DNA from: an uncultured delta proteobacterium
Lineage (GTDB): Bacteria > Myxococcota > Myxococcia > Myxococcales > Myxococcaceae
DNA length: 64,000 bases
Reading direction: 5' to 3'
Assembly: GCA_963776345.1 (NCBI GenBank)
Contig: CAVZMH010000019.1
Coordinates: 224,001 to 288,000, forward strand
Position numbers and translations under genes: made by a program. This document shows positions 1,194 through 15,177 of the stretch, piece by piece. The stretch's first letter is position 1; each line of letters opens with the position of its first letter. Below the pieces are notes generated by a model. That model had not been told where the DNA came from. It made no database searches and worked only from the letters and a program-made list of their open reading frames with translations.

Positions 1194-1616
1194 ATGGCCA
1201 CCTACCGCTGTCCGTCGTGCGGCGCGTTCAACCGGGTGGGCGCCGGGAGTGGTACCCCGGTGTGCGGCCGGTGCAAGCAGCCGCTGCCCACCAGCGGCGC
1301 GCCCCAGGACGTCGACGGCGCCGCGCTCGCCCGGGCCATCGAGGCCTCTCCGGTGCCGCTGCTGGTCGACTTCTGGGCGCCGTGGTGCGGCCCCTGCCGG
1401 GTGGCGGCGCCGCTGTTCGACCAGGTGGCGCGGCGGCTCGCGGGCGAGGCGGTGGTCCTCAAGGTCGACACCGAGGCGAACCCCGACGCCGGGGCACAGC
1501 ATCAGATCCGCGCCATCCCCACCGCGGTGCTCTTCAGCGGGGGGCGCGAGCAGGAGCGCCGGATGGGCGTGCAGCCGGCGCCCTCGCTCGAGGCGTGGCT
1601 GCGCAACGCGGGCTAG
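1194..1616 (+). CDS. trxC: Thioredoxin with N-terminal zinc finger (TrxC/Trx2 type)
   Basis: Two CxxC motifs (CPSC, CGRC) followed by the DFWAPWCGPC active site and IPT cis-Pro motif. Confidence 0.88.
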   Translation: MATYRCPSCGAFNRVGAGSGTPVCGRCKQPLPTSGAPQDVDGAALARAIEASPVPLLVDFWAPWCGPCRVAAPLFDQVARRLAGEAVVLKVDTEANPDAGAQHQIRAIPTAVLFSGGREQERRMGVQPAPSLEAWLRNAG

Positions 1617-1641
1617 GGCCTGGCCCGCCCGGGGGCCCTGC

Positions 1642-1872
1642 TCAGGTCTTCGGCGCGGACGGCCCGGACGAGCCCTTCATCGGCGCGCCGAGCAGCGGCC
1701 CGATGAGGCAGATGTTGAGGAGTCCGGTGGCGATCGGCAGCAAGCCCACCACCGCGAGGATCGTCCCGGCCACCCCCTGCACCACGGACAGCCCGACGTA
1801 GATCAGTACTCCACCGGCGACGACGCGCAGGCCGCGTCCTATCGGGGTGGCCATCCATTCGGCGAAGTGCAT
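1642..1872 (-). CDS. YgaP-like/DUF2892 small membrane protein
   Basis: 76 aa, two hydrophobic helices, GRGLRVVAG...GLLPIATGLLNIC pattern. GGAGG RBS upstream. Confidence 0.75.
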   Translation of the reverse strand: MHFAEWMATPIGRGLRVVAGGVLIYVGLSVVQGVAGTILAVVGLLPIATGLLNICLIGPLLGAPMKGSSGPSAPKT

Positions 1873-1903
1873 GGGACTCCTCCGCGAAGACCCGCTTCCA
1901 GGC

Positions 1904-1932
1904 TGAGAGCCAGGGTGTCACGTCCTGGGTTC
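1904..1932 (-). promoter_or_regulatory. Putative ECF promoter A (GAACC-N17-GCTCTCA) upstream of the YgaP-like gene
   Basis: Minus strand reads GAACC caggacgtgacaccctg GCTCTCA; the motif recurs at three other sites in this module. Confidence 0.7.
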
Positions 1933-1980
1933 GGGAGGAGGCGAAACTTGCGGCACGGCGTGGTTACACTCCCGGGCGTC

Positions 1981-2784
1981 ATGGCGCGGACGGACGAGGA
2001 GCTGCTGCAGGCGGCGCGGGCAGGCGATGACCAGGCCCTGGAGGCGCTGCTCGCCCGGCACGAGCAGAAGGTCTTCCGCTTCGGCCTGCGGATGTGCGGC
2101 AACGAGGAGGACGCCCGCGACGTGCTTCAAGAAACGCTGCTCGCCGCCTTCAAGGGCGTTCGCCAGTTCCGTGGCGACGCCCAGCTCTCGACCTGGCTGT
2201 ACCAGGTGGCCCGGAGCTTCTGCACCAAGGCGCGCCGCCGCGGAGCGGGCGAGCCCGCCCGGCACGAGTCGCTGGAGGGCGCCGCCGCGCGGGAGGTGAG
2301 CGTTCCGGCCTCCGGCCCCGACGAGCGCGCGCATGCCCGCGAGATGGCCCGGGTGCTCCAGGAGGCGCTGCTGGCGCTCCCGGAGTCCCAGCGGGAGGTG
2401 GTGCTCCTCCGGGACGTGGAGGGCCTCAGCGCGGAGGAGGCCGCACGGGTGGTGGGCATCGAGGTGCCGGCGCTCAAGAGTCGGCTGCACCGGGCGCGGC
2501 TGGCGATGCAGGACCGCATCGCAGGGCTGCTCGGCGCCGACTCCGGCCACCCCGCGGCCTGCCCCGAGCTGGCGCGCGAGCTGCTCACCCGGGACGAGGA
2601 CGAGCTGGACCAGGCGGCGTGTGCGCGTCTGGAGCACCACCTCGAGCGCTGTGCCCACTGCGGTCCGGCCTGCGAGGAGCTGAAGCGGTCGGTGTCCCTC
2701 TGCAAGGCGCTCCCCGGCGGCGGGGTGCCGACCGAGGTGCAGTCGAGGGTGCGGAACGCCCTCCGTGCCGCCGTCCAAGGCTGA
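1981..2784 (+). CDS. ECF sigma factor with fused C-terminal ZAS/zf-HC2 zinc-binding domain
   Basis: Region 2 (DARDVLQETLL, FRGDAQLSTWLYQVA), region 4 (LPESQREVVLLRDVEGLSAEEAA..KSRLHRAR), then C-x19-C..HLERCAHC (HxxxCxxC). ATG at 1981. Confidence 0.88.
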   Translation: MARTDEELLQAARAGDDQALEALLARHEQKVFRFGLRMCGNEEDARDVLQETLLAAFKGVRQFRGDAQLSTWLYQVARSFCTKARRRGAGEPARHESLEGAAAREVSVPASGPDERAHAREMARVLQEALLALPESQREVVLLRDVEGLSAEEAARVVGIEVPALKSRLHRARLAMQDRIAGLLGADSGHPAACPELARELLTRDEDELDQAACARLEHHLERCAHCGPACEELKRSVSLCKALPGGGVPTEVQSRVRNALRAAVQG

Positions 2785-2796
2785 GCCGCCCTTCGC

Positions 2797-2825
2797 GAAC
2801 CCAACGCCTCGCTCCCGGGCTCTCA
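2797..2825 (+). promoter_or_regulatory. Putative ECF promoter B (GAACC-N17-GCTCTCA) upstream of the second thioredoxin
   Basis: GAACC caacgcctcgctcccgg GCTCTCA, followed by GGAGG at 2832-2836. Confidence 0.7.
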
Positions 2826-2844
2826 TGCTCCGGAGGTGATCGCG

Positions 2845-3300
2845 GTGGACGTGTACCGTTGTCCCGGGTGCGGCCACTTCGCGCCCGTCGACGCCGAGGC
2901 TCCCAGCGTGCACGGATGCCCGGGGTGCGGTGGGGCGGTCTCCGCCGAGGGAGACCCGCAGGCCGTCTCGCTCACCGCGCTGGGTGAGGCCATCCACGCC
3001 GCCCCCATCCCGCTCCTGGTGGAGTTCTGGGCGCCGGACTGCGAGCCGTGTCTCGCCTCTTCCCTGGTGCTCGACGCGGTCGGCCACCGGCTCGCGGGCG
3101 ACGCCGTGGTGCTCCGGATCGACGTCGAGGAGAACCCCGAAGCCTGCGAGGCGTACGGCGTCCTGGCCGTGCCCACGGTGGTGCTGTTCAGCGCCGGGAA
3201 GGAGCGAGGTCGCCGCGTCGGCCCGCTCCAGGCGCGGGCGCTCGAGGAGTGGGTCCACACCGCCGGGCGGGCCCCGCTCGCTCCCGGTGCTCGCGCCTGA
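2845..3300 (+). CDS. Thioredoxin paralog with zinc finger and atypical CEPC active site
   Basis: CPGC x2, EFWAPDCEPC, VPT. GTG at 2845 follows GGAGG and aligns with the start of the 1194 paralog (the ORF track starts it at 2836). Confidence 0.8.
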   Translation: MDVYRCPGCGHFAPVDAEAPSVHGCPGCGGAVSAEGDPQAVSLTALGEAIHAAPIPLLVEFWAPDCEPCLASSLVLDAVGHRLAGDAVVLRIDVEENPEACEAYGVLAVPTVVLFSAGKERGRRVGPLQARALEEWVHTAGRAPLAPGARA

Positions 3301-3330
3301 CCGGGGGCAGCCCCGGGGCCCACCTTGCCG

Positions 3331-4252
3331 CTACTTCCCGGGAGCGCCGGCCTTCTGAACCGCTTCGGGGACGGTGTCCCATTTCCCGCGCACGTCGATG
3401 GCCTGGATGCACTCCGCCTCGCACCGCACCGAGTGGGGCTTCCCGCCCTTGATCCAGTAGAACGAGCCAGGCGGCAGCCTGGTCTCCTTCCCGTCGACGG
3501 TAAGAAGGACGGTGCCCGAGAGGACGTACCCGCCGTGATCCGACGTGTGGTGGTGCGGGCCGCCGTCGAAGTTCTTCGCGTACTTGAGGAAGAAGTGACT
3601 GGGCCAGGTGACCCGTCTTCGGGTCACCTTCGACCACCGCCTGCCAGGCCCCAGGCCTGCTCGGGTTCTCGTTCCATTTCGAGATCGCCCGGAACGACGA
3701 GCGTCGCTCCGGTCAGTCCACGACGAACCATGCGCAACCCCCTTCGGAGGCGCGCAGGTTGCCAATCCGCGATGCTCGTCCAGAGCGAGATCGCTGCGTG
3801 CAGGGCGACAGAGCCACGCGCTGGGGCGCTGGGCACAACCCGGGAGGCGTCGGCAGAGCCGCTCGCGGTCAGGTGTCCCATTTCCCGCGCACGTCGATGG
3901 CCTGGATGCACTCCGCCTCGCACCGCACCGAGTGGGGCTTCCCGCCCTTGATCCAGTAGAACGAGCCAGGCGGCAGCCTGGTCTCCTTCCCGTCGACGGT
4001 GAGGAGGACGGTGCCCGAGAGGACGTACCCGCCGTGATCCGACGTGTGGTGGTGCGGGCCGCCGTCGAAGTTCTTCGCGTACTTGAGGAAGAAGTGACTG
4101 GGCCCCGTCTTCGGGTCACCTTCGACCACCGCCTGCCAGGCCCCGGGCCTGCTCGGGTTCTCGTTCCATTTCAGATCGCCCGGAACGACGAGCGTCGCGC
4201 CGGTGGTGCTCTCCTCGGCGCTGGCGACCAGTTCACGACGAACCATGCGCAA
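3331..4252 (-). pseudogene. Cupin-domain protein (DUF4437-like) present as two imperfect tandem copies, neither complete
   Basis: Cupin motifs PHHHTSD..GYVLSG and GSFYWIKGGKPHSVRC. Copy 3869-4252 lacks the C-terminal tail; the copy ending at 3331 is frameshifted at its N-terminus. Confidence 0.65.
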
Positions 4253-4394
4253 CCCCCTTCGGAGGCCCGCAGGTTGCCAATCCCGCGATTGCTCGTCCAG
4301 AGCGAGATCGTTGCGTGCAGGGCGACAGAGGCACGCGCTGGGGCGGCGGGCACAACCCCGGGGGGGGGCGTCGGCAGAGCCGCTCCGCGGTCAG
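3373..4394. repeat. Head-to-tail direct duplication of ~500 bp (about 3373-3872 and 3873-4394)
   Basis: Long identical stretches (gtgtcccatttcccgcgcacgtcgatgg... to ...gcggtcag) differing mainly by small indels. Confidence 0.92.
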
Positions 4395-4626
4395 CGCTCT
4401 CGCCGGCCATGTCCGCCGGCCCACCGGACGACCGTGCCGATTGCGATTCCGGAGGTGGCGTCGACGCGTCCAGGGCAGATCCTCGCCATGACGCGCTCCT
4501 TTCGGCCCCGTCCGGACGCGCTGCCGGGCGCCACTCGGTGGCACCATGCCAGAACGCCCGCCGCGGCCGTCATCCCCCGGCTTGCCCACGCGAGAGCTTC
4601 CGCGCCGGTCGTCGAGCTCCCCGGCG

Positions 4627-7600
4627 TTACAGGGGCTTGGGGCTCAGCGCTCCGTGCGCTGGCGGAGCGGCGGAGGGTTCCATCACCACCACCGGCGCGC
4701 CCGGCCCGAGCGCGAACCGGCGCGCGAGCACGGTGTAGAGGACCGGCACTGCGATGCGTGAGAGGAGCGTCGCCGCCACCTCTCCGGCCATCATGCTGAT
4801 CGCCAGCCCCTGGAAGATGGGATCGGCCAGCATCACTGCGCTCCCCACGACCACCGCCGCCGCGGTGAGCAGCATCGGCCGGAAGCGGACGACACCCGCC
4901 TCCTCCACCGCCGCCTCCAGCGGCATCCCCTCCGAAATCTTGAGGCGGATGAAGTCCACCAGGATGATGCTGTTCCGGACGATGATGCCTGCCCCGGCGA
5001 TGAAGCCGATCATGCTGGTGGCGGTGAAGAACGCCCCGAGCAGGCCGTGCGCCGGCAGGATGCCGATCAGGCTGAGGGGGATCGGCAGCAGCACCACCCA
5101 GGGCACCACGAAGCTGTCGAACCAGCCGACGACCAGGACGTAGATCAGCACCAGCACCGCGGCGAAGGCCAGACCGAGGTCCCGGAACACCTCCAGCGTG
5201 ATGTGCCACTCGCCGTCCCACTTCATCGACAGCTTCTCGGTGTCGGCGGGCATGGAGAGGCCGTACCGGGGCACCGTCTCGCCGTGCGGGTGAAGGGCGT
5301 CGAGCTTCCGGTTCAGGTCCATCAGCGCGTAGACCGGGCTCTCCTCCTTCCCCGAGAGCTCGCCGAAGACGTAGCTCACCGGCTCCAGGTTCTTGTGGAA
5401 GCGACGGCTCGCCCCCCGCCTCGGCCGGGCGGACCAGCGTCTCCAGCGGGACTGCCCCGCGCTCGCCCTGCACGGGGATCTGCAGCAGATCGCCCAGGCG
5501 GGCCCGCTGGGCAGGCGCGAGCCCGAGCACGATGGGAACCCGGGTGGTCCCCCGGTCGGTCCGCACCGTCCCCAGCTCCGTCGTGGGCTGGGTCAGCGCC
5601 AGCGCCTCCACCACCGCGGCCGGGTTCACGCCCTGCAGCGCCGCCCGCTCGCGGTCCACCCGGAGCAGGGTGCGCGGGGTGACCGGCTCGAGCGACGAGT
5701 CCACGTCCACCACGCCCGGGGTGCTGCGGAAGGCGTCTCGCACCTGGGCGGCGTAGGCGTCGCGCTCGGCGCCGCTCGGTCCGTAGATCTCGGCCACCAG
5801 GGTGGCCAGGACCGGCGGCCCCGGGGGGATCTCCACCAGCCGGAGCCGGGCCCCGAGCGGTGCGGTGACGGCGGTGAGCTTGGGGCGGAGCGCGCTCGCG
5901 ATCTGATGACTGGAGCGCTTCCGCTCGTGCTTGCTCGCCAGCTGCACCGCGAGGTCCACCTGCTCGGGCGATCCGCGGAGGAAGCTGTGGCGCACCAGGC
6001 CCACGAAGGTGAAGGGGGCCGGGGTGAGCGAGTGCACCTGCACCGAGTGCACGTCAGGGTCCTCCATCAGCGTCCGCCCCAGGCGCTCGCCCACTGCCAG
6101 CGCCTGCTCCCGGGTGCCCCCGGCCGGCAGATCCACGAAGACCTGGAACTCGGATTTGTTGTCGAAGGGCAGCATCTTCACCCGGACGAAGCCGATTCCG
6201 ACCAGAGTCACCGCCCCGGCGAAGAGGGCGAGGATCAGCGCCAGGAAGCCGAGCCGGGCCTTTCCCGAGTGGAGCAGGGTGCGGATGATCCGGCGGTAGA
6301 GCCGCGTGGACCAGGTCTCGCGGGGGACGTCGGACGCGACCTTGTGGTCGTGGCCCAGCAGGCGCAGCGCCGCCCAGGGGGCGACCACGAAGGCCACCGC
6401 CAGCGAGAAGAGCATCGCCAGGCTGGCCCCCGTGGGGATGGGGCGCATGTAGGGCCCCATCAGCCCGCGGACGAAGGCCATGGGGAGGATGGCGGCGATG
6501 ACCGCGAAGGTCGCGAGGATGGTGGGGTTGCCCACCTCGTCGACCGCGTTGAGCACCGTGCGGGCGAGCCCGGTCTTCCGGCCCGGCTCGAAGAGGTGGC
6601 GGTGCACGTTCTCCACCACCACGATCGCGTCGTCCACCAGGATCCCGATGGAGAAGATCAGCGCGAAGAGGGTGATCCGGTTCAGGGTGTGGCCGAGCAG
6701 CTGGTTGATGACCAGGGTCAGCGCCAGGGTCACCGGGACGGCGATCCCCACCACCACCGCCGAGCGCCAGCCCATCGCCAGCCACACCAGGGCCACCACC
6801 GAGAAGGTGGCCACCAGGAGATGGCGGATCAGCTCGTTCGAGCGCTCGCGGGCGGTCTCGCCCGAGTTCCGGGTCAGCTCGGCGTGGACGCTGGCGGGGA
6901 TGAGACCGCCGCGCAGCGCCTGCAGCTTGGTGTTCACCTGGTCAGCGAGGATGGTGGCGTTGGCCCCCCTCCGCTTGGCCACGTCCACCGAGACCGCCTG
7001 CTCGAAGCCCGGGTGCTCCCTGCTCGCGGTGAGGACGATGGCCGGATCGCGCTCCGGCCCGTCGGTCACCTGCGCCACGTCGCCGAGGAGGACCGGCCGT
7101 CCGCCGCGGCGGGCGACCACCAGGCGCTGAAGCGCCTCGGGGCCGCTGACCGCGCTGCTGGCCGAGAGCTCCACCCGCTTGCCCTGGTCCACCAGGCTTC
7201 CGGCGGGGGCCTCGGCGTCGGTGGCCTGGAGCGCCTGGCGGATCTCCCCGAGCGAGAGGTCCAGCTCGCGGAGCCGCCTCGGATCGGGCTCCACCCGGAC
7301 CACCCGGCGTGCCCCGCCCAGCACCTGGACCTGGGCCGCCTCGGGGATGCTCCCCAGCTCCCGGGCCACCTCCTGGCCGAGCTGGCGAAGGACCCCCGGC
7401 GCCAGGTCGCCGCCGTGGAGGGTGACCGTCACCACCGGCACGTCGTCGATCGAGAGCAGGGTGACGGTGGGCCGTCCGGCCCGCGGCGGGAACAGCTCGG
7501 GATGGGCCTCGAGCTCCTGGCGCACCTTCACCAGGCTCGGCTCCAGCGGCTCGTTGACCTTGAAGCGGGCGGTGAGCAGCGCGCCGTCGCTGGCGCTGGT

Positions 7601-7870
7601 CGAGTAGACGTACTCCACGCCGGGGATGCCCCACAGCCGGTGCTCCAGCGCGGTCGTCACCTCGGACTCCACCTCGGCCGGGGAGGCGCCGGGGAGGGGG
7701 ACGAAGACGTCCACCATCGGGACGATGATCTGCGGCTCCTCCTCGCGGGGCGTGGTGAGCACCGACGCCACGCCCACCACCAGCGCCGCGCCCACCCCGA
7801 GCACGGTCAGCCGGGAGTTGATGGTCTTCGCCGCCAGTCGGCCGGCGAGACCCGCGCGCGGCTCAGTCAC
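4627..7870 (-). CDS. RND efflux transporter permease (AcrB/AcrD/AcrF family), one frameshift near 5400
   Basis: [47 protein letters not shown]. The two ORF halves join at ...[14 protein letters not shown]. Confidence 0.9.
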
Positions 7871-8855
7871 CCGCCACCTCCACCCGCTGCCCGTCACGGA
7901 GCCCCGCCGGGCCGTCGATGATCCGCTCGCCGGGCGCGAGGCCGGCCAGCACCGGAAGCTGATCTCCCTCGGGCTCGCCGAAGCGCAGCCAGCGGAGCGT
8001 GGCCCGGCCGTCGGAGACGACGAAGACCCCGCTCAGGTCTCCGCGCTGGACCAGCGCCGTCCGCGGGACGACCCGCCGGGGCCCGCCGGCGCCGCGGATG
8101 CCGATCCGTCCGAAGTCGCCGCTCCGCAGCGCTGGCGCGTCCTTCGTCGGCCGGGCCCGGAAGGCGCTCCGGTGCGAGAGCGGATCGCCTCCCGACGAGA
8201 GCGCCACCAGCGCCGCCGTCCCCTGGAGGGTCCCGACGCGGAACGGCACCTCGGCGCCCACGGCCAGACCCGCGCTCTCCGTCTCGGAGAGCGTCCCGGT
8301 GAGCTCCAGCGCGGTGCCGTCCAGCTCCACCAGCGGCGCGCCGGGACCGACCAGCGCGCCCCGGCTCACCCACTTGCGCTGCACCACCGCATCGAACGGC
8401 GCGCGGATCGCGGTGTCCGCCAGGGTGGCCCGCGCGGCCTCCACCCGGGCCACCGCCTCCGCCCGTGCGGTCATCGCCGCGTCGATCTCGGTGGCGGTCG
8501 CGGCGCTGGCCGACCTGAGCGACTGGATGCGCCGGACCTGGGACTCGGCCACCTCGAGCTGGCTCTCCGCGGCCCGGAGCGTCGCCTGGACGTCCTCGCC
8601 GGAGAGGCGCACCAGGACGTCTCCGCGGCGGACGCGTGCGCCCTCGTTGACCGAGAGCTCGGTCACCCGGGCGGAGACGCGGGTGGCGAGCACCGCGTGG
8701 TCCACCGCACTGACGGTGGCCGGGACCCAGGTGCGCTCGCCGAGATCCTCGGAGGGCACCAGCCGGACCTTCGCCGCCGGAGTCTCCGGAGCGGGCGGCG
8801 GATGGCTGGCGCTGCAGCCGGCCACGAGCAGGACGAGAACGGCGAGTGGCTTCAC
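7863..8855 (-). CDS. RND periplasmic adaptor (membrane fusion protein), lipoprotein
   Basis: Lipobox LVAGC, lipoyl-like VNEGARVRRGDVLV, IRAPFDAVV, VPRTALVQRG, GLAPGERII. Overlaps both neighbouring genes. Confidence 0.88.
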   Translation of the reverse strand: MKPLAVLVLLVAGCSASHPPPAPETPAAKVRLVPSEDLGERTWVPATVSAVDHAVLATRVSARVTELSVNEGARVRRGDVLVRLSGEDVQATLRAAESQLEVAESQVRRIQSLRSASAATATEIDAAMTARAEAVARVEAARATLADTAIRAPFDAVVQRKWVSRGALVGPGAPLVELDGTALELTGTLSETESAGLAVGAEVPFRVGTLQGTAALVALSSGGDPLSHRSAFRARPTKDAPALRSGDFGRIGIRGAGGPRRVVPRTALVQRGDLSGVFVVSDGRATLRWLRFGEPEGDQLPVLAGLAPGERIIDGPAGLRDGQRVEVAGD

Positions 8856-10165
8856 GGGCGGACTCCTTCGACGGGTTGACCCGAGGCGTGCTCCAGCTCC
8901 GCCCGGGCGAGGCGGGCCTGCAGCGCGCTGCGCAGCAGTAGCGCCCGCGCCGAGGTCAGGCCAGTCTCGGCATCCAGCAGCTCGGTGAGTGGAATCAAGC
9001 CCTGGCGATGGCGCGCCTGGCGGAGCGTGCGGGTCTCCTCCGACGCCGTCACCGCGGTGCGGGCGGCCTCGAGCGCCGTGCCCGCGGCGGTGACCGAGGC
9101 CCTCGCCTGCTCCAGCTCGGCGTTCAGCATCCGGTCCTGCGCGACCCGCCGGGCCTCCGCGGCCGCGCGGGCGGCGTCGGCGGCGTCCGCCGCCTTGAAG
9201 CTCGCGACGGAACCTCGCCACTGGAGGACCAGGAAGCCCATTCCCCAGACGTTTCCCTCGTTGACGCCGGCGCGCTCGGTGGCCACCCCGCCCTGCAGCG
9301 CCAGGGTGGGCCAGAGCAGTCCGTGGGCCTCGTCCGCGGCGGCGACCTGGACGGCCACGTTGGCGCGCGCCGCCTTCGCCTCGGGACGCTCCTCGACCGA
9401 GGCCTCGGCCTGGGCCTCCGGCGGGACCAGCGGAGTCACCAGCGTCCCGGGCGCGGCGTCCTGCCCGACGAGGAGCATGAACCCGGTCCGGGCCTGGGCG
9501 AGCTGGCGCATCGCCGCCGCGCGCTCGGCCTCGGCCTGCGCCCGGTAGGCGGTGCTCCGCGAGCCCTCGGAGGCCAGCAGGAGGTCCTGCGCGACGCGGG
9601 CGTGGACGAAGGTCTCGGTCTCGCGCGCCGCCCGCACGGCGTCGTCGGCGTAGGCCAGCGCCTCCTCGGCCGCGCGGACGGAGAAGTAGGCCCGGAGCGT
9701 CTCCAGCGCGACCTGGGCCTGCATCACCTCCCGCGAGGCCTGCTCGGCGTCGGCGCCGGCGTGGGCCCGTCGGCTCGCCGCCCAGAGCGCGGGCGCGATG
9801 AGCGGCTGCTCCACCACGGCCGAGAGGCCGAAGCTGCCGAGCGCGGTGGGGGTGTTGAGCCGGGCGGGATCGAAGTCGGACGCCGTCACCTGGCCCTGGT
9901 CCAGGAGGAGCGCGAACCGGTGCGAGGGCTGGGAGGTGACGGTCCCCGTCGCCCCGAGGACGACGGTGGGTCCGAGGGACCAGTCCGCCGCCTCGGCGCC
10001 GCGGGTGGCGGAGGTGGCCTGGGCGGAGGAGGCCTGGAGCCGGGCCTCGTGGTTCCAGGCGGAGCGGATGGCATCGGTGACGGTCAGCTCCGGCGCGGCG
10101 AGCGCGGCCGGGGACGCGAGGAGCCCGGCGAGCAGGAGCCCGGAGGTGGTGGCGCGAGGTGTCAT
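8852..10165 (-). CDS. TolC-family outer membrane efflux protein
   Basis: Signal peptide, alanine-rich helical repeats, RQGLIPLTELLDAE motif; first gene of a TolC-MFP-RND operon. Confidence 0.85.
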   Translation of the reverse strand: MTPRATTSGLLLAGLLASPAALAAPELTVTDAIRSAWNHEARLQASSAQATSATRGAEAADWSLGPTVVLGATGTVTSQPSHRFALLLDQGQVTASDFDPARLNTPTALGSFGLSAVVEQPLIAPALWAASRRAHAGADAEQASREVMQAQVALETLRAYFSVRAAEEALAYADDAVRAARETETFVHARVAQDLLLASEGSRSTAYRAQAEAERAAAMRQLAQARTGFMLLVGQDAAPGTLVTPLVPPEAQAEASVEERPEAKAARANVAVQVAAADEAHGLLWPTLALQGGVATERAGVNEGNVWGMGFLVLQWRGSVASFKAADAADAARAAAEARRVAQDRMLNAELEQARASVTAAGTALEAARTAVTASEETRTLRQARHRQGLIPLTELLDAETGLTSARALLLRSALQARLARAELEHASGQPVEGVRP

Positions 10166-10175
10166 GGGCGCCGGC

Positions 10176-10203
10176 TGAGAGCCGGGACCGCCCCCGGAGA
10201 TTC
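10176..10203 (-). promoter_or_regulatory. Putative ECF promoter C (GAATC-N16-GCTCTCA) directly upstream of the TolC gene
   Basis: Minus strand reads GAATC tccgggggcggtcccg GCTCTCA, ending 10 nt before the ATG at 10165. Confidence 0.6.
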
Positions 10204-10217
10204 GCGCCCGGCTGCGG

Positions 10218-10246
10218 GAACCCTCCAGGCCCCGGCCCGGCTCTCA
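10218..10246 (+). promoter_or_regulatory. Putative ECF promoter D (GAACC-N17-GCTCTCA), divergent from C, with no obvious downstream CDS
   Basis: GAACC ctccaggccccggcccg GCTCTCA. Confidence 0.6.
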
Positions 10247-10323
10247 GGTCCGGGAGCTCGGCGAGCCGGGACGGTCCGGCGGTCCGGACCCGTGCGTCGT
10301 TTCCCCCTCGACGCAGGTCCGTC

Positions 10324-10479
10324 TCAGAGGACCGCGCCGTTCCGGCCCCGGGCGCCCTCCATGACCGGACGTAGCGCCGCCAGCCCGAGCATCGCCACCG
10401 CGAGCGGGCGGGCCCGGGGCCGGGAGGCGCGCCAGCGGGCGGCGACCACGCCCACCGCGACGTGTCCGAGCGTGGCCAT
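10324..10479 (-). pseudogene. Short ORF resembling the N-terminus of a membrane metal-dependent hydrolase (YdjM-like), apparently truncated
   Basis: MATLGHVAVGVVAARW... start, coupled to the upstream gene by an overlapping TGA/ATG; only 51 aa and lacks downstream LPD/HRG motifs. Confidence 0.35.
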
Positions 10480-11071: not shown

Positions 11072-12559
11072 ATGCCCGACGCACGCAGCCTGACGCCCCG
11101 GCTCCCCGAGCCCAAGCTCCTGATCGACGGTGAATCGGTGTCTCCGGCTGACGGCGGGACTCTCCCCATCACCAACCCCGCGACCGGGGAGACCTTCTTC
11201 CACGCCCCCGCGGCGGGCATCGCCGACGTGGACAAGGCCGTCCACGCCGCGCGCCGGGCGTTCGAGTCCGGCCCCTGGTCCCGGATGAGCCCCGGCGCCC
11301 GGGGCAAGCTGGTGCGCAAGCTGGCCGAGGCGCTGTGGGAGCGGCGGGAGGAGTTCGCGCTGGTCGGCTCGCTGGAGAACGGGAAGACGTTCGGCGAGGC
11401 CATCCGCGGCGACGTCGCGCCGGGGAGCGCCACCCTGGCCTACGCCTCCGAGTGGTCGAACAAGATGGCTGGCGAGGTGCTCCCCGTCGACGGGAGCTTC
11501 CTCACCTACGTGCTGCGCGAGCCGCTGGGCGTGGTGGCCGCCATCGTCCCCTGGAACTACCCGACCTGCCTCGCCTGCTGGAAGCTCGGGCCCGCGCTGT
11601 CCACCGGCTGCACCGTCATCCTCAAGCCCAGCGAGCTGACGCCGCTCACCGCGCTGAAGCTCGGCGAGCTGGCGCGCGAGGTGGGGTTCCCGCCCGGGGT
11701 GCTCAACGTGCTCCCCGGCTACGGCGCCCCCACCGGCGAGGCGCTGGCCCGTCACCCGGACGTGGACAAGATCGCCTTCACCGGCTCGGTGCGCACCGCG
11801 CGGCGGCTGCTGCACGCCTCGGCGGACACCAATCTGAAGAAGCTCACCCTCGAGCTGGGCGGGAAGAGCCCCCAGGTCATCTTCGCCGACGCCGACCTGG
11901 GCCGCGCGGTCGAGGCCTGCTTCTGGGGCATCTTCGGGAACAAGGGCGAGGTCTGCAACGCCGGCAGCCGGGTGCTGGTGCACGCCCGGGCGCACGACGC
12001 GTTCGTGGAGAAGCTGGTGACCCGGGCCCGGCAGATGGTGGTCGGCGACCCGCTCGACGCGCGCACCGAGATGGGGGCCCAGGTGAGCGCGCACCAGCTG
12101 GAGACCATCCTCGGCTACGTCGAGTCCGGGAAGAGCGAGGGCGCCACCCTGGCCTGCGGCGGCGAGCGCGACCGCGAGGGCCTCAAGGCCAGGGGCAACT
12201 TCCTCAAGCCCACCGTCTTCGTGGACGTGCAGCCCCACATGCGCATCGCCCAGGAGGAGATCTTCGGCCCGGTGCTCTCGGTGATGCGCTTCGAGGACGA
12301 GGCACAGGCGCTGCGGGTGGCCAACGGGACCTCGTACGGGCTCGCGGCGAGCATCTGGACGCGCGACGTGGCCCGGGCCCATGCCCTGGCGAGGAAGGTG
12401 CAGGCCGGCGTGGTGTGGATCAACTGCTTCAACGAGTTCGACGACGCGGCGCCCTTCGGCGGCTACAAGGAGTCCGGCTGGGGCCGCGACCTCTCCGCGC
12501 ACGCGCTGGAGAACTACACCCAGCTGAAGACGATCTGGACGCACCTCCCGGAGGTCTGA
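11072..12559 (+). CDS. NAD(P)-dependent aldehyde dehydrogenase (PuuC/betaine-aldehyde-like)
   Basis: IVPWNYP, FTGS, LELGGKSP, GEVCNAG, EEIFGPV, PFGGYKESGWGR. Confidence 0.93.
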   Translation: MPDARSLTPRLPEPKLLIDGESVSPADGGTLPITNPATGETFFHAPAAGIADVDKAVHAARRAFESGPWSRMSPGARGKLVRKLAEALWERREEFALVGSLENGKTFGEAIRGDVAPGSATLAYASEWSNKMAGEVLPVDGSFLTYVLREPLGVVAAIVPWNYPTCLACWKLGPALSTGCTVILKPSELTPLTALKLGELAREVGFPPGVLNVLPGYGAPTGEALARHPDVDKIAFTGSVRTARRLLHASADTNLKKLTLELGGKSPQVIFADADLGRAVEACFWGIFGNKGEVCNAGSRVLVHARAHDAFVEKLVTRARQMVVGDPLDARTEMGAQVSAHQLETILGYVESGKSEGATLACGGERDREGLKARGNFLKPTVFVDVQPHMRIAQEEIFGPVLSVMRFEDEAQALRVANGTSYGLAASIWTRDVARAHALARKVQAGVVWINCFNEFDDAAPFGGYKESGWGRDLSAHALENYTQLKTIWTHLPEV

Positions 12560-12562
12560 GCC

Positions 12563-13984
12563 ATGCCCCGCGCCGCCGGCCGTGCGACCCGAGCCACCGC
12601 CCGTGCTCCCAGGCAGGTCCGGACACCAGTGGATCCGGTGGAGCCGGTGCTGCGCTGGCTGGCCGACCACCGCGCGACCCAGGTGAAGATCGCCGGGGTC
12701 GACCTCGACGGGGTGCTGCGGGGCAAGTACGTCAGCCTGGACAAGTTCGCCTCGGTGGCCCGCGCGGGCCTGGGGTTCTGCGACGTGGTCTTCGGCTGGG
12801 ACCTCGCCGACGAGCTCTACGACAACGCCCGGGTCACCGGCTGGCACACCGGCTATCCGGACCTCCAGGCGCGGGTCGACCTCTCCACGGCGCGGATGAT
12901 TCCCTGGGAGCCGGCCACCGCCGCCTTCCTGCTCGACTTCGTGATGCCCGACGGCTCGGACTACGCCCCGAGCCCCCGGGCGCTGCTCCGGCGGGTGGGG
13001 CAGAAGGCGAGGGCGCTGGGCTTCCTCCCCAAGTTCGGGAGCGAGTACGAGTTCTTCATCTTCCGCGAGACGCCCGCCTCGCTGCGGGCCAAGGGCTTCC
13101 AGCAGCTCGAGCCGCTCACCCCGGGGATGTTCGGCTACTCCTGGCTCCGCACCTCGCAGAACTCGGACCTGGTCCACGCGCTGCTCGACGGGTGCAATGC
13201 CTTCGGGCTCGAGGTCGAGGGGTTCCACACCGAGACCGGCCCCGGGGTGTACGAGGCCGCCCTTCGCTACGACGTGCTGGAGCCGGCGGCAGACATGGCG
13301 GTGCTCTTCAAGTCGGCGGTGAAGGAGATCTGCGCCCGGGCCGGGCTCACCGCCTGCTTCATGTCCAAGCCCAGCGCCCGGCTCCCCGGGTGCTCGGGAC
13401 ACGTGCACCAGTCGCTGTGGAGCCTGGACGGGAGCCGCAACGCCTTCCACGAACCGCGGGCGACCCGCGGGATGTCGCGGACCCTGCGGCACTACCTCGG
13501 CGGGCAGCTGAAGCTGATGCCCGAGCTGACCGCGCTCTACTGGCCCACCATCAACAGCTACAAGCGCAGCGTGGAGAACACCTGGGCCCCGACCGCGGCG
13601 AGCTGGGGACGCGAGAACCGCACCTGCGCGCTGCGGGTCATCGGCACCGACCCGAAGAGCACGCGGGTGGAGTTCCGGCTGCTCGGCGCGGACATGAACC
13701 CCTACGTGGGCATGGCCGCCTCGCTGGCCTCCGGCCTCTGGGGCATCGAGCACCAGGTCGAGCCGGGAGAGCCGGTGACGGGAAACGCCTACCGGAGCGA
13801 TGCCGCCCCGCTGCCGCGCAACCTGCGCGACGCCATCACCCTCCTCGACCGGAGCACCGTCGCCCGGGAGCTGCTGGGCGAGGAGTTCGTCGATCACTAC
13901 CTCCGCACTCGCACCTGGGAGGTCCGGCAGTACGAGCGCGCCGTGACCACCTGGGAGCTGGAGCGATACTTCGAGCTCGCCTGA
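12563..13984 (+). CDS. Glutamine synthetase-like gamma-glutamyl-amine ligase (PuuA/GlnA4-like)
   Basis: DLDGVLRGK, EYEFF, HTETGPGVYE, FMSKP..GCSGHVHQSL, WGRENRT, RVEFR. Start could be 12629. Confidence 0.88.
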   Translation: MPRAAGRATRATARAPRQVRTPVDPVEPVLRWLADHRATQVKIAGVDLDGVLRGKYVSLDKFASVARAGLGFCDVVFGWDLADELYDNARVTGWHTGYPDLQARVDLSTARMIPWEPATAAFLLDFVMPDGSDYAPSPRALLRRVGQKARALGFLPKFGSEYEFFIFRETPASLRAKGFQQLEPLTPGMFGYSWLRTSQNSDLVHALLDGCNAFGLEVEGFHTETGPGVYEAALRYDVLEPAADMAVLFKSAVKEICARAGLTACFMSKPSARLPGCSGHVHQSLWSLDGSRNAFHEPRATRGMSRTLRHYLGGQLKLMPELTALYWPTINSYKRSVENTWAPTAASWGRENRTCALRVIGTDPKSTRVEFRLLGADMNPYVGMAASLASGLWGIEHQVEPGEPVTGNAYRSDAAPLPRNLRDAITLLDRSTVARELLGEEFVDHYLRTRTWEVRQYERAVTTWELERYFELA

Positions 13985-13986
13985 CC

Positions 13987-15177
13987 ATGGAAACGCCCTT
14001 CTTCGACCTGCCGGCCACGCCGCGCGTCACCGTGATGTCCTGGCCCACCCGCATCGTGCTCGGGCCGGGCGCCCTGAAGCGGCTGCCGGACGAGGTGCGG
14101 CGGCTCGGGCTGCGCCGCCCCCTGCTGGTGACCGACGCCGGGGTGGTGAAGGCCGGGCTGGTCGACCGGGTGCTGGCGGTGCTCGGCGAGGCGGGCATCG
14201 TCCACGTGCTCTTCGACCACGTCACCCCGGATCCGACGGAGCCGGACGTCTTCGCCGGGCTGGAGGCCTACCGGAGCGGCGGCTGCGACGGCATCGTCGC
14301 CCTCGGCGGCGGCAGCCCGCTGGACGCCGCGAAGCTGGTGCAGCTCCTCACCACCCATCCGCCCCCGCTCAGCCGCTACGACGACGCGACCGGCGGAGAC
14401 CGGTTCGTCACCCATCCGCTTCCCCCGCTGATCGCCATCCCCACCACCGCCGGGACCGGGAGCGAGGTGAGCCGGAGCGGCGTCGCCTTCCTCCAGGACA
14501 CCGGGCGAAAGACGGTCATCTTCGCGCCGGCGCTGCTGCCGCGCGCCGCGATCTGCGATCCGGAGCTGACCTACGGGCTGCCCCCGCGGGCCACGGCGGC
14601 GACGGGGCTCGACGCCTTCACCCACTGCCTCGAGGCCTACCTGAGCAACGGGTTCCACCCGCTCGCCGACGCGGTGGCCATCGACGGCATCGCCCGGGTG
14701 GCGCGCGCGCTCCCGGTGGTGATGCAGGAGCCGACCCATCTCCAGGCCCGGATGGACATGATGATCGCCGCGATGGAGGGGGCGATGGCGTTCCAGAAGG
14801 GGCTGGGGAACGCGCACGCGCTGGCGCATGCGCTCACCCCGGTCGCCGGGCTCCACCACGGGCTGGCCAACGCGGTGGTGCTACCGTCGGTGATGGCGTT
14901 CAACCGCGGCTCGGCGCGGGCGCGGCTGGCGTGCGTGGCGGTGGCGATGGGGGAACCGTCGGGCGCCTCGGACGAGGTGCTCGCCGGACTGGCCATCGAG
15001 CGGGTGCGCACGCTGGTCTCGGACGCGGGGCTGCCCACGCGGCTGTCCGACGCGGGGGTGAAGGAGGCGGACCTCGAGCGCATCGCCGCGCTCGCCTTCC
15101 GCGACGCCTCGCACCAGGGAAATCCCAGGCCGACCACCGAGGCCGACCTGCTCGACATCGCCCGCGCGGCGCTCTGA
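13987..15177 (+). CDS. Iron-containing alcohol dehydrogenase
   Basis: GGGSPLDAAK, IPTTAGTGSE, DAFTHCLE, HALAH, HHGLAN. Confidence 0.93.
   Translation: METPFFDLPATPRVTVMSWPTRIVLGPGALKRLPDEVRRLGLRRPLLVTDAGVVKAGLVDRVLAVLGEAGIVHVLFDHVTPDPTEPDVFAGLEAYRSGGCDGIVALGGGSPLDAAKLVQLLTTHPPPLSRYDDATGGDRFVTHPLPPLIAIPTTAGTGSEVSRSGVAFLQDTGRKTVIFAPALLPRAAICDPELTYGLPPRATAATGLDAFTHCLEAYLSNGFHPLADAVAIDGIARVARALPVVMQEPTHLQARMDMMIAAMEGAMAFQKGLGNAHALAHALTPVAGLHHGLANAVVLPSVMAFNRGSARARLACVAVAMGEPSGASDEVLAGLAIERVRTLVSDAGLPTRLSDAGVKEADLERIAALAFRDASHQGNPRPTTEADLLDIARAAL

What the first reader, a model, noticed from the sequence alone, without database searches (positions are those of the whole stretch)
1194..10246. Candidate one-component thiol/sulfur-stress regulon: ECF-ZAS fusion sigma factor plus four copies of one promoter motif
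Seen: GAA(C/T)C-N16/17-GCTCTCA occurs at 1904-1932(-), 2797-2825(+), 10176-10203(-) and 10218-10246(+). All four are intergenic, and three are correctly oriented just before the YgaP-like gene, the second thioredoxin and the TolC-MFP-RND operon. In the middle lies an ECF sigma factor with a fused zinc domain. Known: ECF promoters have an AAC-type -35 with 16-17 nt spacing, and YgaP/DUF2892 plus RND genes often cluster with reactive-sulfur genes under Cys-sensing ArsR repressors. Inference: a self-contained redox-sensing sigma factor drives thioredoxin, YgaP and efflux expression here, and its thioredoxin target may reset it. This is the best candidate for an undescribed system in the window.
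Basis: partly seen in the sequence, partly recalled or inferred. Interest (0 to 1): 0.82.

Follow-up and report, generated by a model that had tools for sequence, protein, structure and literature searches.

The report
Self-braked sigma for thiol-sulfur stress
A soil myxobacterium's alternative sigma factor carries its own cysteine-rich anti-sigma tail, and a promoter-like motif that tracks it across Myxococcales sits in front of thioredoxin and sulfide-detoxifying genes, so it likely is a one-protein switch for thiol and reactive-sulfur stress, a role I found unreported for this catalogued but untested family.

Summary
Observation confirmed. GAA[CT]C-N16/17-GCTCTCA occurs at the four stated sites, and 6 times in the 5.1-Mb genome against 0.43 expected. 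The sigma (1981-2784) is the reciprocal best match of WP_011419852.1, the published example of fused ECF270, a group catalogued without promoter, context or function. The motif recurs 70 times in 44 of 80 related loci, at spacers 16/17, never inside a called gene. It is about five times denser in genomes with this sigma (15 of 16 informative genera). It precedes persulfide dioxygenase (ortholog of PDB 4YSB), rhodaneses, YeeE/TauE, thioredoxins, a thioredoxin-reductase-like protein, OsmC, YgaP and TolC, also far from the sigma gene. The tail has the CHCC zinc motif plus three extra invariant cysteines and is predicted to clamp sigma2 and sigma4. Natural tail-less variants keep motif-like sites and two invariant sigma2 cysteines. 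Corrections: this genome lacks the dioxygenase; the canonical thioredoxin has no motif; site 4 has no gene; the RND gene is frameshifted; RsrA's redox determinants are mostly absent. No transcription start was seen. New variant of a known kind; signal untested.

The parts
1194..1616 (+). TrxC-like thioredoxin with two N-terminal CxxC and a WCGPC active site; a conserved neighbour but not motif-preceded
   Evidence: Pfam Thioredoxin 1.5e-23; NCBIfam TrxC 108.7 bits, below the 125 cut-off; active site; no PWM site upstream
1642..1872 (-). YgaP-like (DUF2892) membrane protein, predicted target of site 1
   Evidence: PF11127 7.3e-8; the same site-gene pair in L004, L005, L006, L008, L011
1904..1932 (-). 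Motif site 1, GAACC-N17-GCTCTCA, about 30 nt before the YgaP start
1965..1970 (+). TACACT 10 nt before the sigma ATG: possible housekeeping -10 box of a near-leaderless sigma transcript; no family motif points at the sigma gene here
   Evidence: sequence; TAnnnT-like words seen by eye before many orthologue starts, not counted
1981..2784 (+). ECF270-type sigma factor, 267 aa: sigma2 and sigma4 (aa 1-186, invariant C39 and C81) fused to a soluble ZAS tail
2548..2784 (+). Fused ZAS tail, aa 190-267: C194, H220, C224, C227 plus invariant C214, C231, C241; four predicted helices
   Evidence: 76 of 76 fused proteins keep all seven residues; profile hits RsiW 2e-6 and RsrA 4.7e-4
2797..2825 (+). Motif site 2, 12 nt after the sigma stop and 19 nt before the GTG of the second thioredoxin, with GGAGG between
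2845..3300 (+). Second TrxC-like thioredoxin with an atypical DCEPC active site, predicted target of site 2
   Evidence: orthologue with ECEPC and a motif upstream in L004
4627..7870 (-). AcrB-family RND transporter, split by a one-base frameshift near 5401-5414 (intact, 1080 aa, in L004 and L006)
7863..8855 (-). RND periplasmic adaptor (MFP)
8852..10165 (-). TolC-family outer-membrane factor, first gene after site 3
10176..10203 (-). Motif site 3 (N16), 10 nt before the TolC ATG; a site before tolC also in L004 and L006
10218..10246 (+). Motif site 4, back to back with site 3 (14 nt apart, like the divergent pdo/yeeE pairs of relatives), with no protein gene behind it
10252..10358 (+). Long hairpin starting where a site-4 transcript would start; not found in the 12 other genomes of the genus, no Rfam match
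   Evidence: z = -4.72

Best explanation
The gene at 1981-2784 encodes an ECF270-type sigma factor fused to a ZAS-type tail that likely holds it inactive, and GAA[CT]C-N15/16-GGCTCTCA is likely its promoter, so thiol modification of the tail, most likely by persulfides or disulfide stress, would switch on a thiol and reactive-sulfur regulon. Shown: the fusion, eight invariant cysteines, the motif's spacer, position and co-occurrence with the sigma, and the gene classes behind it. Predicted: the tail lies across sigma2 (core-binding helices) and sigma4 (the -35 helix), with C214, C231 and C241 in the interface. Inferred: zinc binding, release on cysteine modification, reset by thioredoxin systems, and housekeeping rather than autoregulated transcription of the sigma gene in this genome. 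Predicted targets in this genome: YgaP, a DCEPC thioredoxin, TolC-MFP-RND, an ArsP-type permease with a small thioredoxin, a small Cys-rich protein, and a small membrane protein with OsmC. Relatives add persulfide dioxygenase, rhodaneses, YeeE/YedE, TauE, SQR-like and thioredoxin-reductase-like genes.
For: Motif: 70 sites in 44 of 80 loci at spacers 16/17 against 7 over 20 other spacers; 0 of 70 inside called genes at 79% called coding, 52 of 70 within 100 nt of a same-strand start; ATG 5-7 nt after the motif in 19 of 70. Link to this sigma: among genomes at least 90% complete, 429 sites in 188 sigma-positive genomes (3.08 per 10 Mb, reversed control 0.19) against 39 in 76 sigma-negative (0.63, control 0.34); higher in 15 of 16 genera with a difference, 1 tie. 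Targets in trans: in G036 the three sites lie 0.4 to 3.8 Mb from the sigma gene and precede rhodanese, DUF6132 and OsmC; 26 of 43 scanned downstream genes from 9 genomes are thiol-disulfide (13) or sulfur transfer/oxidation/transport (13) proteins. The target in locus L039 (M. xanthus) matches PDB 4YSB at E 3e-152, which PMC6060420 names a type I persulfide dioxygenase. A matrix built from relatives alone ranks five of the six strict own-genome sites and one new site as its top six, all intergenic. Brake: tail profile hits RsiW, RsrA, RslA, ChrR; complex score 0.73 against best control 0.01, runs agree in at least 66% of contacts, partner pLDDT at least 61; the mark was reached by 116 of 157 solved and 2 of 215 mismatched pairs, and likeness to solved sigma/anti-sigma complexes may explain the pass. 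Seven natural tail-less sigmas, at least three separate losses on a quick tree, have open frames through sigma4 and a motif-like site beside them.
Against: No transcription start or induction was observed. RsrA's redox determinants (E39, E40, L45, E46; PMC3177212) are poorly kept: 40 of 76 tails have none, 33 one, 3 two, and the closest solved match, RsiW, is redox-insensitive (PMC5358783). This genome (98% complete) has no close persulfide dioxygenase (best 30% identity) and no top-ranked site at its nine rhodanese matches, so 'sulfur' here rests on relatives. 22 of 188 well-assembled sigma-positive genomes have no exact site and 28 of 76 sigma-negative genomes have at least one. Kin are not independent, and the order-wide sigma search scored only 7 candidates per genome. 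The RND target is frameshifted and site 4 has no gene. The full-length model gives no confident domain arrangement (pTM 0.35).
Confidence: 0.62

Rival explanations
1. Same promoter and brake, but the switch is thrown by regulated proteolysis of the tail, as the 2022 review's table proposes for fused ECF270, not by direct cysteine chemistry.
For: PMC8999054 Table 2 lists WP_011419852.1 under proteolysis; the tail resembles redox-insensitive RsiW most; RsrA determinants are mostly absent; tail-less forms exist.
Against: The tail is soluble, with no membrane segment; three extra cysteines are invariant in 76 of 76 and fall in the predicted interface; no protease family was recognised among the recurring neighbours that were scanned.
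Confidence: 0.13
2. The sensor is the C39/C81 pair inside sigma2; the tail only dampens or tunes the response.
For: C39 and C81 are invariant in 76 of 76 fused and 7 of 7 tail-less proteins; tail-less proteins persist beside yeeE, rhodanese or osmC genes with no close tail homologue elsewhere in five such genomes (best E 3.6e-9; 150 of 238-290 candidates scored each). A sigma-internal cysteine pair is described for SigK (PMC7826278 passage).
Against: The distance between the two cysteines could not be measured; both may be structural; tail-less forms may simply be constitutive.
Confidence: 0.12
3. The signal is a metal or metalloid (copper, cadmium, zinc, arsenite) bound by the cysteine-rich tail, as in CorE/CorE2, and the thiol genes repair metal damage.
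For: Targets include an ArsP-type permease with a small thioredoxin, a heavy-metal P-type ATPase and an RND system; myxobacteria use metal-sensing ECFs.
Against: No CXC linker motif and no short cysteine-rich tail; tail-less variants argue against a tail needed for activation; metal transporters are 1 of 43 scanned targets against 13 sulfur genes; the RND scores higher as multidrug type than as CusA/CzcA.
Confidence: 0.08
4. The motif is read by another regulator (another ECF, or a repressor) and the fused sigma is only a neighbour.
For: This genome has a split ECF plus ZAS pair on C7 and 12 ArsR-type matches; some Myxococcus and Corallococcus clusters hold a second ECF with a zf-HC2 partner; sigma-negative genomes keep 0.63 sites per 10 Mb.
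Against: The split-pair sigma family is present in sigma-negative genomes, where only 2 of 24 loose matches were intergenic and within 100 nt of a gene; the motif is bipartite and not palindromic; the second ECF is in 6 of 80 loci and shows a different upstream word.
Confidence: 0.05

Closest known systems
ECF270, subgroup 2 (Casas-Pastor 2021, PMC7826278; example WP_011419852.1 in PMC8999054 Table 2)
   Same: Soluble ZAS fused to the ECF in deltaproteobacteria; 44% identity over the whole length, reciprocal best match.
   Different: The classification says context conservation stops at the ZAS and promoter motifs are not conserved; the review gives no experimental data and files the fusion under proteolysis. 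Here a motif and a regulon are found, mostly away from the sigma gene's own upstream region.
SigR-RsrA of Streptomyces coelicolor (ECF12) and SigW-RsiW of Bacillus subtilis
   Same: CHCC ZAS domain; thioredoxin systems among the targets (SigR); a GAA[CT]-type -35 element.
   Different: One polypeptide; three extra tail cysteines and two sigma2 cysteines; -10 is GGCTCTCA, not GTT; RsrA redox determinants mostly absent; sulfide-oxidation genes in the regulon; no membrane anchor as in RsiW.
Persulfide-sensing regulators SqrR/BigR/YgaV, CstR and FisR (PMC13467558, PMC7315123)
   Same: The same output genes: SQR-like, persulfide dioxygenase, sulfurtransferases, TauE, YeeE/YedE.
   Different: These are repressors or a sigma54 activator. 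The 2026 review names three major sensor classes and has no occurrence of 'ECF'.
CorE/CorE2 of Myxococcus xanthus (ECF238) and ECF48/52/53
   Same: One-protein ECFs with cysteine-bearing C-terminal extensions.
   Different: CorE has a tail of about 20 aa and a CXC linker needed for activity; ECF48/52/53 are actinobacterial and mostly membrane-anchored.

Membership tests
ECF270 (subgroup 2) | Sigma core assigned to the group | tested here: met
   By proxy: the best match in G036 is exactly WP_011419852.1 and it returns the window gene as best match, E 1.6e-67 against 1.6e-39 for the next; 44% identity full length.
ECF270 (subgroup 2) | Score against the ECF Hub group and subgroup models | not testable with these tools
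   The models are not held here.
ECF270 (subgroup 2) | Soluble ZAS at +1 or fused | tested here: met
   Fused 78-aa tail ending at the stop codon, no room for a membrane helix; zf-HC2 in 29 of 30 tails.
ZAS (class I anti-sigma domain) | Cx(n)HxxxCxxC motif in a four-helix domain | tested here: met
   C194/H220/C224/C227 align with RsiW C3/H30/C34/C37; four helices predicted; 30 of 30 tails hit TIGR03988 below its cut-off.
ZAS (class I anti-sigma domain) | Structural match to a solved ZAS | tested here: inconclusive
   The single-sequence model without zinc gave only generic helical bundles.
ZAS (class I anti-sigma domain) | Binds and covers sigma2 and sigma4 | tested here: inconclusive
   Predicted only: 0.73 against 0.01, contacts on aa 12-58 and 119-180; may reflect likeness to solved complexes.
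ZAS (class I anti-sigma domain) | Zinc binding | not testable with these tools
   Needs metal analysis.
Redox-sensitive RsrA-type ZAS | Acidic residues before, and L plus a charged residue after, the CxxC | tested here: not met
   Window reads H-L-E-R-C-A-H-C-G-P (1 of 4); 40, 33 and 3 of 76 tails have 0, 1 and 2 of 4.
CorE-like ECF238 | CXC in the linker and a cysteine-rich tail of about 20 aa | tested here: not met
   No linker cysteine; 78-aa ZAS tail.
ECF48/52/53 | Actinobacterial, zinc finger usually followed by membrane helices in a long extension | tested here: not met
   Myxococcaceae relatives, soluble short tail.
Persulfide sensors (SqrR/BigR, CstR, FisR) | ArsR, CsoR or sigma54-activator fold | tested here: not met
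   The protein is a sigma70 r2+r4 protein.
Persulfide sensors (SqrR/BigR, CstR, FisR) | Cysteines react with persulfide and change transcription | not testable with these tools
   Needs mass spectrometry and reporters.

The most novel reading that the evidence does not exclude
ECF270 fusions are a fourth class of reactive-sulfur sensor: a sigma factor that senses persulfide directly through its tethered ZAS tail and its own sigma2 cysteine pair, and in Myxococcales does the job of the SqrR/BigR, CstR and FisR regulators of sulfide oxidation, including the dioxygenase of M. xanthus.
Probability: 0.4. Interest if true: 0.85.

Novelty: new variant of a known kind. Interest (0 to 1): 0.68.

Why it matters
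It gives an untested ECF group a predicted promoter, a regulon and a signal, all testable in M. xanthus, where a target is the solved persulfide dioxygenase. The known reactive-sulfur sensors are repressors or a sigma54 activator; a sigma factor in that role would be new. It also poses a general question cleanly: how does an anti-sigma let go when it is tethered to its sigma? Natural tail-less variants and a split paralogue supply controls. A compact one-gene sigma switch with its own promoter could also serve as a sulfur or thiol biosensor.

Tried and rejected
Transcription starts: three 2026 RNA runs laid on L125 gave flat depth on both strands and no pile-up at the motif, so they say nothing either way; the supplements of the M. 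xanthus Cappable-seq paper held no match for five target-gene words and its genome-wide data are in ArrayExpress. Fold searches of the tail model found no ZAS, only helical bundles. The full-length model was good for finding sigma homologues only. The sigma70 scan found no promoter in 1600-4700. The looser motif is noisier: five motif-rich sigma-negative genomes were checked by full scoring and do lack the sigma; 20 of their 24 matches lack the extra G (one genome differs between the two sets), so the GG form was used for the profile. That form came from sigma-positive loci, which favours the contrast somewhat. The site-4 hairpin as a conserved RNA was rejected. ECF284 (-35 GAATCCTTT) and ECF285 (DUF2892 at -1) were considered from the supplement and dropped: neither is described with a ZAS. 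The Chlorobaculum ECF-like motif (bioRxiv 10.1101/172254) is described as SigH/SigR-like. The careful tree did not finish; only the quick tree is cited.
Full report
1. The observation. The window has only four GCTCTCA heptamers and each has GAA[CT]C 16 or 17 bases upstream. The genome (G000, 5.10 Mb, 71.7% GC, 98% complete) has 6 matches against 0.43 expected. The two outside the window precede an ArsP-type permease with a small thioredoxin (C1:9631) and a small Cys-rich ORF (C22:306070). A matrix built only from relatives ranks five of these six and one new site as its top six; the new one (C15:367342) lies just before a 73-aa membrane protein followed by OsmC. Site 2 ranks eighth. At 21 bits there are 6 sites against 0 and 0 at control spacers.

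2. The genes. Details change the picture: the WCGPC thioredoxin at 1194 has no site; the one behind site 2 has DCEPC; the RND gene carries a one-base frameshift near 5401-5414 and is intact in L004 and L006. It was the only frameshift among the dozen or so genes compared with close relatives, so a real lesion is as plausible as an assembly error. Site 4 is back to back with site 3, like the divergent pdo/yeeE pairs in relatives, but faces only a non-conserved hairpin and a truncated gene on the other strand. I read it as the orphan half of such a pair.

3. The sigma. Orthologues were found in 250 of 363 genomes of the order (the tally includes G000 and the unpublished G257) and in other orders of the phylum. 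The tail has C194-x25-H220-x3-C224-x2-C227 and three more cysteines; these seven residues, and C39 and C81 in sigma2, are invariant in 76 of 76 fused proteins. A tail profile finds RsiW, RsrA, RslA and ChrR in the PDB. The best match in genome G036 is WP_011419852.1, which PMC8999054 Table 2 gives as the fused ECF270 example, and the match is reciprocal. The supplement of PMC7826278 describes ECF270 as having a soluble ZAS, fused in 60% of subgroup 2, with no wider context and no conserved promoter. That paper notes that ECFs that do not regulate themselves show no conserved motif upstream; in the window no family motif points at the sigma gene, which may be why it was missed.

4. The motif as promoter. 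In 80 loci (the best 80 of 575 matches, 1.33 Mb) there are 70 sites in 44 loci, 18 at spacer 16 and 52 at 17, against 7 over the 20 other spacers. None is inside a called gene although 79% of the DNA is called coding; 52 of 70 have a same-strand start within 100 nt; 19 of 70 have ATG 5-7 nt behind the motif, the geometry of leaderless messages. The consensus widens to (T/C)GAA(T/C)CC(T)(T)(T) ... GGCTCTCA. With G000 and G257 left out, genomes at least 90% complete hold 3.08 sites per 10 Mb with the sigma (188 genomes, reversed control 0.19) and 0.63 without (76 genomes, control 0.34); the contrast holds in 15 of 16 genera with a difference. Limits: kin are not independent, 22 of 188 positives have no exact site, and absence of the sigma was checked by full or deeper scoring in only 10 genomes.

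5. The regulon. First genes within 100 nt of the 70 sites: persulfide dioxygenase 11, rhodanese 10, YeeE-type at least 10, YgaP 7, TolC 2, OsmC 2, and single TauE, SorA-like, YeiH, thioredoxin and other genes; 18 had none called. The dioxygenase in L039 is the orthologue of PDB 4YSB, named a type I persulfide dioxygenase in PMC6060420. Genome-wide, in nine genomes picked mostly for high site counts (three overlap or nearly overlap the 80 loci), 45 of 56 sites lie within 100 nt of a start and 8 inside called genes. Of 43 downstream genes scanned, 13 are sulfur proteins (7 rhodanese, 2 dioxygenase-type, TauE, YeeE, YeiH, SQR-like) and 13 thiol-disulfide proteins (7 thioredoxin, 2 thioredoxin-reductase-like, glutaredoxin, TlpA-like, 2 OsmC). 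For scale, this genome has 9 rhodanese matches in 5.1 Mb. In G036 all three sites are far from the sigma gene. The window's own genome lacks a close dioxygenase, so its regulon is the thiol and transport half.

6. Mechanism. A two-chain prediction places the tail across sigma2 (aa 12-58) and sigma4 (aa 119-180), with C214, C231 and C241 among the contacts: 0.73 against 0.01 for the best of three controls, with at least 66% agreement between runs and partner pLDDT of at least 61. The mark was reached by 116 of 157 solved and 2 of 215 mismatched pairs, and solved sigma/ZAS complexes could account for the pass. Seven tail-less sigmas, chosen from partial matches, end just after sigma4, have no ZAS gene behind them, keep C39 and C81, and sit beside a motif or a one- or two-base variant, mostly before yeeE, rhodanese or osmC; a quick tree needs at least three losses. 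This suggests the core reads the promoter without the tail, which favours a brake over a CorE-type activator. Against RsrA-like sensing, the flanking determinants of PMC3177212 are mostly missing, and PMC5358783 shows that a CHCC domain can be oxidised without letting go. If the tail senses, the three extra cysteines are the likely means. My odds: motif is this sigma's promoter 0.9; tail inhibits 0.8; trigger is direct thiol chemistry 0.65-0.7; persulfide in particular about 0.4.

7. Literature. Seen: PMC7826278 passages, supplement passages and parts 28 and 30 of 36 (the file is cut, and Table S2 and ECF Hub were not seen; they may hold subgroup logos that bear on the novelty claim); PMC8999054 abstract, section 3.5 part 1 and passages; passages of PMC13467558, PMC7315123, PMC5358783, PMC6060420, PMC8844925 and bioRxiv 10.1101/172254; abstract and passages of PMC3177212. 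'ECF270' occurs in the searched text of one paper only, the review. Searches listed no study of this sigma, its motif or an ECF-run sulfide-oxidation regulon; subscription journals are not covered. Three earlier notes of this scan describe what looks like the same or a parallel system in other genomes; they are not independent evidence.

8. Verdict. Real, conserved and well supported as a sigma-promoter pair. The architecture is catalogued; I found no report of its promoter, regulon or tail-less variants. New variant of a known kind, interest 0.68.

Noticed in passing
window 3331-4360: A cupin gene (3869-4252, minus) and its upstream DNA are duplicated in tandem about 500 nt apart; the left copy has several indels and looks decayed. 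The insertion is absent at this place in L004 and L006.
   Followed up: partly
window 10252-10358: Strong hairpin (z -4.7) right behind motif site 4; no Rfam match, not found in the other genomes of the genus.
   Followed up: yes
window 10324-10479 (-): A 51-aa ORF that looks like the truncated start of a membrane hydrolase gene (name recalled, no Pfam hit), suggesting a deletion scar next to site 4.
   Followed up: no
L121:5800-6696 (G000:C7): A split ECF plus 78-aa soluble ZAS pair, the nearest paralogue of the fusion; its sigma family is also present in genomes lacking the fusion.
   Followed up: partly
L156, L157, L158, L159, L160, L161, L162: Tail-less members of the family, 185-198 aa, from several independent losses; one genome (G293) has both a fused and a tail-less copy.
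   Followed up: partly
L039:3695-4970, also L032, L040, L060, L062, L063: A second ECF with a zf-HC2 partner inside the sulfur cluster, preceded by a different word (GGAAC ... GTGTCCT).
   Followed up: no
L087, L088, L170, G000:C15 near L169: The sigma gene, or a motif-led operon, lies next to genes resembling alternative complex III (multiheme cytochrome c and partners; identification recalled, not scanned).
   Followed up: no
L002:7137-7379 and L207:1609-1728: A small Cys-rich protein without a Pfam match follows the motif in two genomes.
   Followed up: no
window 11099-15177: Aldehyde dehydrogenase, glutamine-synthetase-like and iron alcohol dehydrogenase genes in a row, possibly an amine utilisation operon; unrelated to the motif.
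   Followed up: no
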